Below, one piece after another: positions 1,470 to 61,236 of a stretch of 64,000 nucleotides of DNA. Numbering within the stretch: position 1 is the first letter of the stretch; every line of letters starts with the position of its first letter. Source of the DNA: a virus; the IMG/VR virus record IMGVR_UViG_3300027782_000032, positions 32,001 through 96,000 of that record, one strand, 5' to 3'. A program made the translations under genes and the position numbers. Below the pieces are notes generated by a model that did no database searches, was not told the origin of the DNA, and was given only the letters and a program-made list of their open reading frames with translations.

Positions 1470-2683
1470 AAAGTCGGAGACTCGGCCATTACCTGTAGCT
1501 TGTCACATAGAGACTGAAACTCGAAGTACGCATGCCCTATAATCGACCTTGTGCTTTCTAGTGGTAGGTAGTTGTCAAGAACGTGATTCAAAAATGGAAC
1601 CAGCTTGTTTTGAAGCTTTATAGGTCCTGAGTCAGGCATCTCGATTTCTGCTTCTTCTAATGAAGGAATACTAACCCTGCCGTAATCTACAGACTCTATG
1701 CTGTCTAAAGACATCACCATTCTATAGGCTTGAAGGTTTCTCCAGTAGAAGTCGGTACCGCCAATAATCCTGCTGTTATAGTCCAGCTGTCCGTCTATTA
1801 CTATCTGCCGGTAAGCTATGTCAGCTTCCTTAGTGGTTATAGCTTTAAACACAACCTTGTACTTACCATCAAACATTTCATATGATTTCTTAAACCTTAT
1901 ACTTCCTAAAATAGATTGAACAAAATCAAACTTATCTTCAGGAGTTACGTCAGTTAAGTCTTCTCTCTTAAGGTCCCACCCGCAGTGAGGGCAGTTAGGC
2001 ATTAAGCTAATAGCAGACGGCTGGTATTCCTGAGCTGGAGCAGTGTATTCCACGTGAGGTCTTGGCTCCTCTTTATAAGTCTGAGGCCTAGAAGCTTCAG
2101 CTGCAGGTGATGCTATGTCATTTATGAATGATAAGTTGTTTTCTTTGTATACTGGCTTGGCTGCTTCAGGTTTAGTGGAGACGTCTCCACTAATAACAAC
2201 AGGTTCTTCTTTTTTAACTATCTCCTCTTTTTTAACAGGCTCAGGCTCATTAGGCTTAAGGTGGTCTGGTAAAATTGGAGGTTTGAATGGGTTAGCCTTA
2301 TCTACTGACCTCTTAAAAGCATCATCATGCATCTTTTTTAACGAGTCGTATCTTTCCTTGTCAGACACTATCTCGTTTAGAAGCGCCATACCCTCTTCTA
2401 TTTGCCTTCTTTGCTGAGCTGAAACTTTATCAAGAGAAACAGGAGTTTTAACTTTTTGAAGTAGGTTTCTATAGGCCGCCATATCCTGCTCAGATGCCTC
2501 TTCCTCTACTGCAGGTTTGACTTCTTCTTTTTCAGGCTTAGTTGGTGATACCTCTTCTATTGCTTTTTGAAGCTCTTCAAGCTTTCCTTCTTTTTGAAGC
2601 ATTAAAGCTTTTATTTCAAAATCCGTAAGAGAAGACAGCTTAGCCTTACCAGCTAGCGGTGGGTCTTTCTCATTCTCACTCAT
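1451..2683 (-). CDS. Hypothetical tail/baseplate assembly protein (acidic disordered N-half, CPHCG motif)
   Basis: 410 aa ORF between spike and tape measure genes; CxxC motif; function from position only. Confidence 0.35.
   Translation of the reverse strand: MSENEKDPPLAGKAKLSSLTDFEIKALMLQKEGKLEELQKAIEEVSPTKPEKEEVKPAVEEEASEQDMAAYRNLLQKVKTPVSLDKVSAQQRRQIEEGMALLNEIVSDKERYDSLKKMHDDAFKRSVDKANPFKPPILPDHLKPNEPEPVKKEEIVKKEEPVVISGDVSTKPEAAKPVYKENNLSFINDIASPAAEASRPQTYKEEPRPHVEYTAPAQEYQPSAISLMPNCPHCGWDLKREDLTDVTPEDKFDFVQSILGSIRFKKSYEMFDGKYKVVFKAITTKEADIAYRQIVIDGQLDYNSRIIGGTDFYWRNLQAYRMVMSLDSIESVDYGRVSIPSLEEAEIEMPDSGPIKLQNKLVPFLNHVLDNYLPLESTRSIIGHAYFEFQSLCDKLQVMAESPTFWKAIE
2172..2193. repeat. Dispersed palindrome copy 1 (22-bp perfect: TTAGTGGAGACGTCTCCACTAA)
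   Basis: Perfect inverted repeat, 16-bp core at 2175-2190; read as SGDVST in the minus-strand CDS. Confidence 0.95.
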
Positions 2684-2702
2684 AGCATCCCCAGTCCTTT
2701 AG

Positions 2703-60615: not shown

Positions 60616-60678
60616 GCTTACCTCTTATTATAGTCTGGCGCACATACTAACTATAAACATAGCCATATGCAAGGCTGG

Positions 60679-61236
60679 CTACACTACTGACAGCTTACTC
60701 ACCTCATTATCCTCAGTAACTCTCTTCTTCTTACACCCTACTGGAATGTAGAACCCCAGTTGTGGAGACGTCTCCAATCCGTAGCTTCGTCGGATGGACT
60801 CTAGGTCATCGCTCTTAATAGAAATAGCCCACAGCTTTTCATACTCACCTGTTGCAGGCAGCTCAACTATAGGGCCAAGAGTGTAGTGATAAGAGTGACC
60901 GCGCTCAGTGATATGGCTAGTTCCGCCTAGCTTATCTACCTCTTCTTTGGTCATTACCTTGATAGCGCACTCAGTTCTATTGTTACGCACAACGAATTCA
61001 GCCCCTGGCTCATCTAGAGCGTCAAAGACACCTTTGATAAGCGAAGAGGGGACTGTTAGTTCTAGGTTACCGCTGGGACCTGCTTGAAGCCTGCCAGCAA
61101 GAGCGTGCACTGAAGCGTGATCCGCACTCTTGTTCATATGGCCATGCGCCTGCCCAAACGAGAACATCTCAGCGTTGAGAGCCTTGAGCCACTCAGCGCC
61201 TTTGATAAGTCCTAATGATATCGGAGGTATGGTCAT
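60679..61236 (-). CDS. Hypothetical protein, possible degenerate 2H-phosphoesterase fold
   Basis: Overall pattern resembles phage 2H proteins from memory, but both HxT/S motifs are missing. Confidence 0.35.
   Translation of the reverse strand: MTIPPISLGLIKGAEWLKALNAEMFSFGQAHGHMNKSADHASVHALAGRLQAGPSGNLELTVPSSLIKGVFDALDEPGAEFVVRNNRTECAIKVMTKEEVDKLGGTSHITERGHSYHYTLGPIVELPATGEYEKLWAISIKSDDLESIRRSYGLETSPQLGFYIPVGCKKKRVTEDNEVSKLSVV
60762..60777. repeat. Dispersed palindrome copy 9 (GTGGAGACGTCTCCAA)
   Basis: Read in a different frame (LETSP) from the other intragenic copies. Confidence 0.9.

What the first reader, a model, noticed from the sequence alone, without database searches (positions are those of the whole stretch)
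2172..60777. The palindrome is overprinted on proteins in one preferred frame (SGDVST), often in dispensable-looking segments
Seen: six of seven intragenic copies read [S/I]G[D/N]VST, and the divergent 55457 copy reads TGDVSS. The 18-bp symmetric form gives the same peptide on either strand. Codons are fixed (GGA GAC GTC TCC). One copy is in another frame (LETSP, 60762) and two are intergenic. A separate SGDV peptide in the RNAP (~35357-35368) uses different codons (AGC GGT GAC GTA). Several hosts are disordered stretches or an N-terminal leader (helicase codons 7-12, just before TKQA). Inference: selection acts on the DNA, and proteins tolerate the site in linkers or cleaved propeptides.
Basis: partly seen in the sequence, partly recalled or inferred. 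Interest (0 to 1): 0.7.

Follow-up and report, generated by a model that had tools for sequence, protein, structure and literature searches.

The report
Phage DNA palindrome written through genes
An uncultured jumbo phage keeps one exact 14-18-base DNA palindrome about every 7 kb, and where it falls inside genes the short peptides it spells (mostly GDVS, also ETSP, rarely WRRL) are by-products of selection on the DNA. The apparent "preferred frame" is just the frame in which this DNA word is cheapest to encode.

Summary
The window holds 8 exact and 2 one-mismatch copies of GGAGACGTCTCC (0.03 expected). Seven of eight intragenic copies read xGDVSx, one reads LETSP, and two are intergenic.

The DNA-level reading is strongly supported:
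- Five relatives only about 70-75% identical in DNA keep the same word at orthologous places, in all three frames and between genes.
- They keep identical codons, including rare ones (GTC and TCC, 5-8% of their synonymous sets).
- Non-palindromic GDVS peptides use varied codons.

"One preferred frame" is only partly right. Family-wide, independent sites split GDVS 16 : ETSP 9 : WRRL 2. Chance single copies of the word in unrelated phages show the same spectrum, which is close to the codon-usage expectation. The window's 7/8 does not differ significantly from it (P=0.10).

"Dispensable segments" is partly right. Sites are enriched between genes, near indels and in poorly conserved flanks. They arose by substitution, not insertion. 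Two AlphaFold models put them in ordered turns, not disordered stretches. Nothing supports cleaved propeptides.

The function, probably docking of a dimeric DNA-binding protein on an evenly spaced array, is inferred. No reader protein was found. Other agents of this scan have already reported the array in this genome.

The parts
2174..2191 (.). Palindrome copy (exact core 2177-2188). It reads ISGDVST in the 410-aa ORF 1451-2683(-).
   Evidence: It lies in an indel-rich K/E/P/A linker. It is kept in G001 and G002 and shifted about 20 aa, with 1 mismatch, in G004.
10004..10021 (.). One-mismatch copy (GGAGACGTTTCC). It reads SGNVST in a conserved 65-aa ORF, 9920-10117(-).
   Evidence: Orthologous copies exist in G001, G002 and G004, in the variable, indel-rich middle of the small protein.
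18123..18140 (.). Exact copy. It reads IGDVST at residues 365-370 of the 478-aa ORF 17796-19232(-), a protein with a weak T4 gp21-like prohead-protease fold match.
   Evidence: It forms a 3-residue turn between two helices with pLDDT about 90. Distant homologues read a variable L[IV]xD(x)xx[LF]E.
25437..25454 (.). Exact copy. It reads SGDVST in the 118-aa ORF 25335-25691(-).
   Evidence: The flanks are variable. The outgroup orthologue reads SSNVSN (AGT AGC AAC GTC TCT AAT), which has the same length.
31370..31387 (.). Exact copy. It forms codons 7-12 (SGDVST) of the SNF2-type helicase ORF 29912-31405(-).
   Evidence: The start is GTG preceded by GGAG. The site is kept in G002, half-decayed in G004 and lost in G001, so it sits in a variable N-terminal tail.
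39473..39490 (.). Exact copy. It reads SGDVST at residues 151-156 of the 439-aa ORF 38621-39940(-).
   Evidence: It lies at a strand-to-helix junction with pLDDT 94-97, next to an insertion hot spot. The surrounding 25-aa segment is absent from the most distant homologues.
48186..48203 (.). Exact copy, intergenic.
   Evidence: Orthologous intergenic copies exist in G001, G002 and G004.
53665..53682 (.). Exact copy, intergenic. It lies between the stop of the 203-aa ORF and the AAGGAG-ATG of an 81-aa gene.
   Evidence: The orthologues start at MLLQLNPP. Orthologous copies exist in G001, G002 and G003.
55457..55474 (.). One-mismatch copy (AGAGACGTCTCC). It reads TGDVSS in the 763-aa ORF 54956-57247(-).
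   Evidence: It is present only in this genome, in a variable, gapped region. It could be a young site, a decaying site or a chance match.
60761..60778 (.). Exact copy in the other frame. It reads LETSP in the 185-aa 2H-phosphoesterase ORF 60679-61236(-).
   Evidence: The flanks are identical in five genomes. Distant homologues read SYGL[S/E]xxP, so only L and P are protein-level constraints.
35357..35368 (-). Control peptide SGDV(E) in the fused beta/beta' RNAP ORF 31408-35865(-), spelled agc ggt gac gta.
   Evidence: It is not palindrome-coded.

Best explanation
The palindrome (A/T)(G/T)TGGAGACGTCTCCA(C/A)(T/A) is a cis-acting DNA site kept by selection on the nucleotide sequence. It recurs about every 7-8 kb along the chromosome of this jumbo phage and its relatives.

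The genome is more than 93% coding and the median gap between genes is about 15 nt. Most copies therefore have to lie inside genes. There the word is written by ordinary substitutions into codons that tolerate it: short variable turns, linkers, N-terminal tails and indel-prone spots. No 18-bp insertion is involved.

The peptides GDVS, ETSP and WRRL are by-products. Frame use simply follows how cheaply the word can be encoded: GDVS and ETSP are common, WRRL is rare.

Shown here: DNA-level conservation, frame spectrum, placement bias, origin by substitution, and even spacing.

Inferred: the perfect dyad symmetry, sequence invariance through the centre and lattice-like spacing point to a dimeric sequence-specific DNA-binding protein that docks or loads along the whole chromosome. 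The reader protein and the purpose of the array are not identified.
For: Over-representation: 10 copies against 0.03 expected in the window, and 13 in the 93-kb contig.

Conservation across relatives:
- Five relatives at about 70-75% nucleotide identity carry 11-21 copies each.
- Copies lie at orthologous positions in three frames and in intergenic DNA.
- At amino-acid-conserved columns, codons are identical in 48/49 motif columns against 506/2182 (23%) of background columns.

Codon evidence:
- The word uses rare codons: GTC 0.08, TCC 0.05 and AGT 0.12 of their synonymous sets. A GDVS peptide would be spelled this way with probability about 8e-4.
- GDVS peptides not coded by the exact word use other spellings (all but two differ widely), and their number is about that expected from composition. 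All ETSP and WRRL peptides are palindrome-coded.

Motif extent: T(-1) and A(+13) are invariant in 66/66 exact copies. The -2/-3 flank preferences are the same in every frame and between genes.

Frame spectrum: independent sites split 16:9:2. Chance copies in unrelated phages split about 16:9:2. Codon usage predicts .45/.52/.03.

Placement:
- At least 10 of 37 independent sites are intergenic, against 8-12% or less non-coding DNA.
- A gap lies within 10 columns at 9/13 sites against 4.9 expected, P=0.005. The mean flank-conservation percentile is 0.36, P=0.036.

Origin by substitution.

Spacing: CV 0.33-0.59 against about 0.94 for random placement in all six genomes.

Against an RNA stem: there are no compensated double variants (1 of 22, chance level).
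Against: No reader protein was found.
- Pfam ParB_N and HTH_ParB give no hit in the five genomes searched with each model; the two sets together cover all six.
- 175 of 203 G001 ORFs show no HTH, RHH or ParB domain at E<=0.001.

Other limits:
- An RNA-level role cannot be excluded by symmetry alone, because almost all genes are on one strand.
- The six genomes share ancestry, so conserved spacing and positions are not six independent observations.
- Gene calls come from a greedy longest-ORF caller.
- The codon-identity test is partly circular, because groups were ascertained by the motif.
- The GDVS:ETSP ratio (16:9) is somewhat above the codon-usage prediction, though not significantly (P about 0.09-0.10).
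Confidence: 0.75

Rival explanations
1. RNA-level element. The word acts in the long same-strand transcripts as a 7-bp stem with an ACGU loop that is recognised, cut or paused at by a phage or host factor.
For: 92 of 95 called genes in the contig are on one strand, so every copy is transcribed. A palindrome gives the same RNA whichever strand is read.
Against: There are no compensatory variants (1 of 22 two-mismatch relatives is still palindromic, which is chance level). The would-be loop bases vary no more than the stem bases: one-mismatch changes fall on both (positions 1, 4 and 5 of each half). Copies ignore gene boundaries and sit inside essential-looking genes, where cleavage would be costly. 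Rfam gives no match. Full dyad symmetry through the centre is not needed for a hairpin.
Confidence: 0.1
2. Protein-level motif. SGDVST is a functional peptide (for example a cleavage, modification or interaction site) shared by many phage proteins.
For: Seven of eight intragenic copies in the window read xGDVSx. One host is a candidate prohead protease (weak).
Against: The same DNA word is kept in two other frames and between genes. Codons are invariant and rare. Homologues outside the clade have variable residues at the position. Other GDVS peptides use varied codons and occur at the number expected by chance.
Confidence: 0.02
3. Mobile or inserted element. The 18-mer spreads as a small in-frame insertion, for example the footprint of a homing or transposition event.
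For: The length is a multiple of three. Copies are often next to indel-prone spots.
Against: Alignments with homologues that lack the word show no six-codon gain at the site; where its length can be scored it is equal or differs by one residue. Positions are orthologous and stable across 25-30% nucleotide divergence. There are no target duplications or flanking repeats.
Confidence: 0.03
4. Target of an enzyme rather than a docking site. For example, programmed nicking or cutting, a methylation or hypermodification mark, or a Chi-like signal that protects from host nucleases.
For: The core contains GACGTC and two CGTCTC sites. Some phages carry sequence-specific nicks (own knowledge, not tested). 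A palindrome would work in both orientations.
Against: 14-18 conserved bases is far longer than methylase, Chi or nickase words usually are. Nicking both strands of a palindrome would break the genome. Even spacing is not required by these models. No evidence was obtained either way.
Confidence: 0.1

Closest known systems
DNA uptake sequences (USS/DUS) in the coding regions of Haemophilus, Actinobacillus and Neisseria (Findlay & Redfield 2009, PMC2817400)
   Same: A short DNA word is selected at the DNA level and written through genes. Its reading-frame bias is explained by common peptides and codons. It is preferentially placed at poorly conserved amino acids, and the encoded peptides are enriched as a by-product (for the paper; here).
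   Different: Uptake sequences are asymmetric 9-12-mers present in hundreds to thousands of copies in bacterial chromosomes, and they serve or result from DNA uptake. Here the word is a perfect 14-18-bp palindrome in a phage, with about one copy per 7 kb, lattice-like spacing and rare rather than preferred codons.
17-bp dyad repeat 5'-TGTTCGGNNNCCGAACA of Cluster O mycobacteriophages (Cresawn et al. 2015, PMC4351075)
   Same: It is a phage-wide, invariant inverted repeat of unknown function. Copies lie both between genes and inside them, and sites are lost through single synonymous or non-synonymous changes.
   Different: The Cluster O motif has a 3-bp variable spacer and more than 30 copies in each genome, which by my recollection of ~70-kb genomes is about 1 per 2 kb. 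Most copies are intergenic or at gene 5' ends. The sequence, host and phage type are unrelated. Frame use was not analysed there.
ParB-family docking arrays: KorB and its OB operators on RK2 (PMC11790492, cited by earlier agents of this scan and not read here); Noc NBS sites; parS
   Same: These are 14-16-bp palindromes scattered over a replicon, some of them intragenic, and read by a dimeric protein that can spread from them (own knowledge).
   Different: No ParB-family gene was detectable with Pfam PF02195 or PF17762 in the five genomes searched with each model. Membership is therefore not supported here. The regular spacing of about 7.7 kb is not a described feature of those systems.

Membership tests
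DNA-level word overprinted on coding sequence (USS/DUS-type coevolution with the proteome) | The word is strongly over-represented and present in several frames and in non-coding DNA. | tested here: met
   Three frames plus intergenic DNA are used, and the reversed-word controls give 0-1 matches.
DNA-level word overprinted on coding sequence (USS/DUS-type coevolution with the proteome) | Frame use tracks how commonly the peptides and codons occur. | tested here: met
   Observed 16:9:2. Codon usage predicts .45/.52/.03 (chi-square P about 0.09-0.10). The spectrum equals that of chance copies in unrelated phages.
DNA-level word overprinted on coding sequence (USS/DUS-type coevolution with the proteome) | Sites lie preferentially at poorly conserved amino acids. 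| tested here: met
   (P=0.005 for nearby gaps, P=0.036 for flank conservation). Searches also bear on this. Exceptions are the copies at 18126 and 60764.
DNA-level word overprinted on coding sequence (USS/DUS-type coevolution with the proteome) | The word functions in, or results from, natural-competence DNA uptake. | not testable with these tools
   This is a phage genome, so a role in uptake is implausible. The resemblance is in evolutionary logic only.
ParB/KorB/Noc-type docking array | A palindromic site of about 14-16 bp recurs over the replicon. | tested here: met
ParB/KorB/Noc-type docking array | A ParB-family reader is encoded by the same replicon. | tested here: not met
PF02195 finds nothing at E<=0.01 and PF17762 nothing at E<=1, each in the five genomes searched. 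Pfam finds no HTH or ParB domain in 175 G001 ORFs.
ParB/KorB/Noc-type docking array | Specific protein-DNA binding and spreading are demonstrated. | not testable with these tools
   This needs EMSA, ChIP or DAP-seq.
Cluster O mycobacteriophage 17-bp repeat | The sequence is TGTTCGG-N3-CCGAACA, with a variable 3-bp spacer. | tested here: not met
   The palindrome here is continuous and has a different sequence (the paper).
Functional peptide motif | Homologues conserve the peptide with varied codons, and in one frame only. | tested here: not met
Structured RNA element | Compensatory base-pair changes occur, or the element matches a known family. | tested here: not met
   1 of 22, chance level; no Rfam match.
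Small mobile insertion | The host gene gains length relative to homologues that lack the word. | tested here: not met
   No six-codon gain is seen; where the site's length can be scored it is equal or differs by one residue.

The most novel reading that the evidence does not exclude
The copies form a ruler-like lattice (modal gap about 7.3-8.1 kb) of loading sites for a phage DNA-organising protein that belongs to no recognised DNA-binding family. Selection acts on the spacing rather than on individual sites, so lost sites are replaced nearby. For example, G001 lost the helicase-tail site and carries a one-mismatch site 3 kb away in the RNAP gene. Sister clades of the same jumbo-phage family have evolved their own words, such as AAAGATATCTTT.
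Probability: 0.3. Interest if true: 0.75.

Novelty: new variant of a known kind. Interest (0 to 1): 0.5.

Why it matters
This is a clean natural case of two codes sharing one sequence. It shows how a virus with almost no non-coding DNA fits a chromosome-wide set of DNA sites into its proteins at minimal cost. It also gives a practical rule for telling DNA-level words from protein motifs: the same word in several frames, identical and rare codons, and variable residues in homologues that lack the word.

The array itself points to an undescribed way of organising or marking a jumbo-phage chromosome. It is evenly spaced, conserved through 25-30% sequence divergence, and has no recognisable reader protein. 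It would be directly testable once a cultured relative or the binding protein is found.

Tried and rejected
- Megablast of 10 kb against INPHARED phages found no match.
- The search for related loci with a single protein returned only the three close relatives already known.
- The ParB reader hypothesis got no support. Pfam PF02195 and PF17762 found nothing, each in the five genomes searched. Pfam scans of 10 replication-module ORFs and of 175 G001 ORFs found no HTH, ParB or RHH domain.
- A composition-based disorder score showed high disorder propensity only at 2177 and 39476. General 'disorder' is rejected, also because both AlphaFold models place the sites in confident ordered elements.
- Foldseek of the 478-aa model gave only weak gp21/assemblin-protease hits (E about 0.1). 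I use this as a hint only, and it cannot support 'cleaved propeptide'.
- I looked for clustering of the GDVS frame along the genome with a runs test. It was not significant (P=0.10).
- A uniform-frame null is the wrong null. It is rejected (P=0.004), but only because WRRL is costly.
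Full report
WHAT IS THERE

The window is the reverse complement of bases 3257-67256 of a 92,955-bp IMG/VR viral contig that CheckV rates 45% complete. It encodes a fused beta/beta' multisubunit RNA polymerase (1485 aa, 31408-35865, minus strand) and an SNF2-type helicase. It is therefore a piece of a jumbo phage of roughly 190-200 kb.

The 12-mer GGAGACGTCTCC occurs 8 times exactly and twice with one mismatch, against 0.03 expected. 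The whole contig has 13 copies. Aligned copies give the 18-bp palindrome AGTGGAGACGTCTCCACT.

- Seven of the eight intragenic copies read xG[D/N]VSx, counting the SGNVST copy at 10007 and the divergent TGDVSS copy at 55460. One copy reads LETSP (60764).
- Two copies are intergenic (48189 and 53668).
- The RNAP has an unrelated SGDV(E) spelled agc ggt gac gta.
- The copy at 10007, which could have been taken for intergenic, lies in a 65-aa ORF conserved in four genomes.

IS IT THE DNA OR THE PROTEIN?

I fetched five related phage contigs whole: G001 181 kb, G002 101 kb, G003 102 kb, G004 137 kb and G005 75 kb. The four that align to this contig at the DNA level are only about 69-76% identical to it; G005 gave no blastn alignment. 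Each carries 11-21 copies with at most one mismatch, while the reversed-word control gives 0-1.

The copies sit at orthologous positions.
- GDVS frame: the 410-aa, 65-aa, 478-aa, 118-aa and 439-aa proteins, and others.
- ETSP frame: the 597-aa and 2H-phosphoesterase proteins, and six to seven more.
- WRRL frame: a DnaG-type primase and a 237-aa protein.
- Intergenic DNA as well.

Several lines show that the constraint is on nucleotides.
- At alignment columns where the amino acid is conserved, all genomes share the identical codon in 48 of 49 motif columns, against 23% (506/2182) elsewhere. This test is partly circular, because the groups were found through the motif.
- The non-circular version starts from this contig's sites only and looks at best-hit orthologues. 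It shows most sites retained, although an unconstrained 12-mer would survive about 2% of the time at about 72% identity (inference).
- The word uses rare codons: GTC, TCC and AGT make up 0.08, 0.05 and 0.12 of their synonymous sets. A GDVS peptide would be spelled this way with probability about 8e-4.
- GDVS peptides that are not coded by the exact word mostly use quite different spellings (two differ from it by one base). They number about what amino-acid composition predicts (0.7-1.5 per genome). Every ETSP and WRRL peptide is palindrome-coded.
- T(-1) and A(+13) are invariant in 66 of 66 exact copies. The weaker preferences at -2 and -3 are the same in every frame and between genes. The S and T that flank GDVS therefore also come from the DNA.

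ONE PREFERRED FRAME?

This holds only locally. I grouped sites into orthologous, and so independent, sets across the six genomes. I moved three groups to 'intergenic' because their orthologues start downstream of the site. The result is GDVS 16, ETSP 9, WRRL 2.

Two nulls that respect coding constraints both fit this spectrum.
- The product of the phage's own codon frequencies predicts 0.45 / 0.52 / 0.03 (chi-square P about 0.09-0.10).
- Single chance copies of the 14-mer in unrelated IMG/VR contigs split 18:10:2 after exact-duplicate removal, or about 16:9:2 once redundant protein families are collapsed by eye and the short-ORF CGDVSI family is counted as GDVS.

A uniform null is rejected (P=0.004), but only because WRRL is costly. 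The window's 7 of 8 GDVS is not significantly above the family-wide 59% (P=0.10).

GDVS sites do form a run in the structural/transcription half of the genome, while ETSP and WRRL sites dominate the replication half. A runs test gives only P=0.10.

The frame bias is real but generic. It measures how cheaply this word can be encoded, as was found for bacterial uptake sequences (PMC2817400).

DISPENSABLE SEGMENTS, INSERTIONS, DISORDER?

Placement is biased towards cheap positions.
- At least 10 of 37 independent sites are intergenic, although only 3-7% of the DNA is non-coding by my ORF calls. P=5e-4 against 8% and P=0.01 against 12%.
- Coding sites have an alignment gap within 10 columns in 9 of 13 groups against 4.9 expected (P=0.005). 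Their flanks are less conserved than typical positions of the same proteins (mean percentile 0.36, P=0.036).

Individual contexts:
- 2177 lies in an indel-rich K/E/P/A linker. The site is the only conserved island there, and it has even shifted about 20 residues in G004.
- 31373 lies in the helicase's N-terminal tail. That site is half-decayed in G004 and lost in G001.
- 10007, 25440 and 55460 lie in variable stretches.
- 18126 (VFxxxIGDVSTIEK) and 60764 (SYGLETSPQLGFYIPVG) lie in conserved blocks.

Deep homologue sets resolve these two exceptions and one more site.
- In the 478-aa family the array-bearing clade (at least 69% identity) reads IGDVSTIEK, with occasional single-residue variants. 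More distant members read a variable L[IV]xD(x)xx[LF]E with a one-residue indel.
- In the 2H family, distant members read SYGL[S/E]xxP.
- In the 439-aa family the word occupies variable residues of equal length, and the most distant members lack the whole 25-residue segment.
- A syntenic 21-kb region from the nearest clade without the word (64% identity) has no copy. Where its orthologous codons can be aligned without gaps (the 478-aa and 118-aa proteins), they differ by substitutions only, for example AGT AGC AAC GTC TCT AAT for AGT GGA GAC GTC TCC ACT.

The sites were therefore written in by substitution where family-conserved residues already matched (the D of GDVS; the L and P of LETSP) and the others were free. 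They are not insertions.

AlphaFold models built on these alignments put 18126 in a three-residue turn between two helices (pLDDT about 90). They put 39476 at a strand-to-helix junction (pLDDT 94-97). Both are ordered and confidently modelled, not disordered.

A composition-based disorder score is high only at 2177 and 39476 (approximate). Nothing tested supports cleaved propeptides. The only hint is a weak fold match of the 478-aa host to the T4 gp21 prohead protease.

WHY INSIDE GENES AT ALL, AND WHAT FOR?

Copies are spaced far more evenly than random placement would give. The CV of gaps is 0.33-0.59 against about 0.94, with P<=0.018 in each of six genomes, which are not independent of each other. 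Many gaps fall at 7.3-8.1 kb.

Median intergenic gaps are about 15 nt, and only a third reach 30 nt. A site needed every 7-8 kb therefore usually has to go into a gene.

Site turnover fits selection on the array rather than on single sites. G001 lacks the helicase-tail copy but has a one-mismatch copy 3 kb away in the RNAP gene. G004's largest gap spans its decayed helicase copy. This is anecdotal.

Three features favour a dimeric sequence-specific DNA-binding protein over an RNA hairpin: perfect dyad symmetry through the centre, sequence invariance, and no compensated variants (1 of 22). Rfam has no match.

Pfam ParB_N and HTH_ParB find nothing in the five genomes searched with each model. 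Pfam also finds no HTH, RHH or ParB domain in 175 of 203 G001 ORFs.

Earlier agents of this scan reported this same array elsewhere in the genome and proposed a ParB-like reader. My tests do not support that by profile search, although a divergent HTH could escape Pfam.

COMPARISON AND VERDICT

The overprinting logic is the phage counterpart of uptake-sequence/proteome coevolution (PMC2817400). The array resembles the unexplained 17-bp dyad repeats of Cluster O mycobacteriophages (PMC4351075) and, in principle, the ParB/KorB/Noc site sets. It meets the defining features of none of these as a member.

The finding's core inference is right. Its 'preferred frame' and 'disorder/propeptide' elements are over-read. 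The array remains an interesting object without a mechanism. Interest 0.5.

Noticed in passing
L149, L162, L175, L176, L182, L184 (records G006-G010): A sister clade of the same jumbo-phage family (43-44% identity in the 478-aa protein) carries its own repeated palindrome, AAAGATATCTTT. It has 8-14 exact copies per 107-204 kb record, and the reversed control gives 0. The spacing is less regular. Most other relatives show no repeated 12-nt palindrome in the syntenic 21 kb.
   Followed up: partly
window 31408-35865 (-): A single 1485-aa ORF joins RNA-polymerase beta domains (Rpb2 domains 3 and 6) to the N-terminal beta' domains (Rpb1 domains 1 and 2), i.e. a fused beta/beta' subunit. The helicase gene starts 2 nt after its stop codon.
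   Followed up: no
window 17796-19232 (-): The 478-aa protein belongs to a family of more than 1200 members found on 170-235-kb contigs. Its N-terminal domain weakly matches the T4 gp21 and herpesvirus assemblin proteases (Foldseek probability 0.97, E about 0.1). It has a long helical C-terminal half, so it is a likely prohead protease with a scaffold-like tail.
   Followed up: partly
window 48189 and 53668, and their orthologues: The 700-nt flanks of these two intergenic copies cluster together by blastn, also across genomes. This suggests the copies sit in repeated intergenic or cassette-like sequence.
   Followed up: no
L131:3480-3815 (outgroup orthologue of window 25335-25691): In the nearest clade without the array, the orthologous codons still match the 18-mer at 13 of 18 bases (AGT AGC AAC GTC TCT AAT). 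This is either a decayed ancestral site or a pre-adapted sequence. I could not tell which.
   Followed up: partly
G001 order of sites (L095-L104): Frames are clustered along the genome. WRRL and ETSP sites lie in the replication half and a run of six GDVS sites lies in the structural/transcription half. The runs test gives P=0.10, so this may be chance.
   Followed up: yes
G001:21472 (L096:1407-2465, -): One WRRL-frame copy lies near the C-terminus of a DnaG-type primase. It is conserved in four genomes despite the costly peptide WRRLQS.
   Followed up: no
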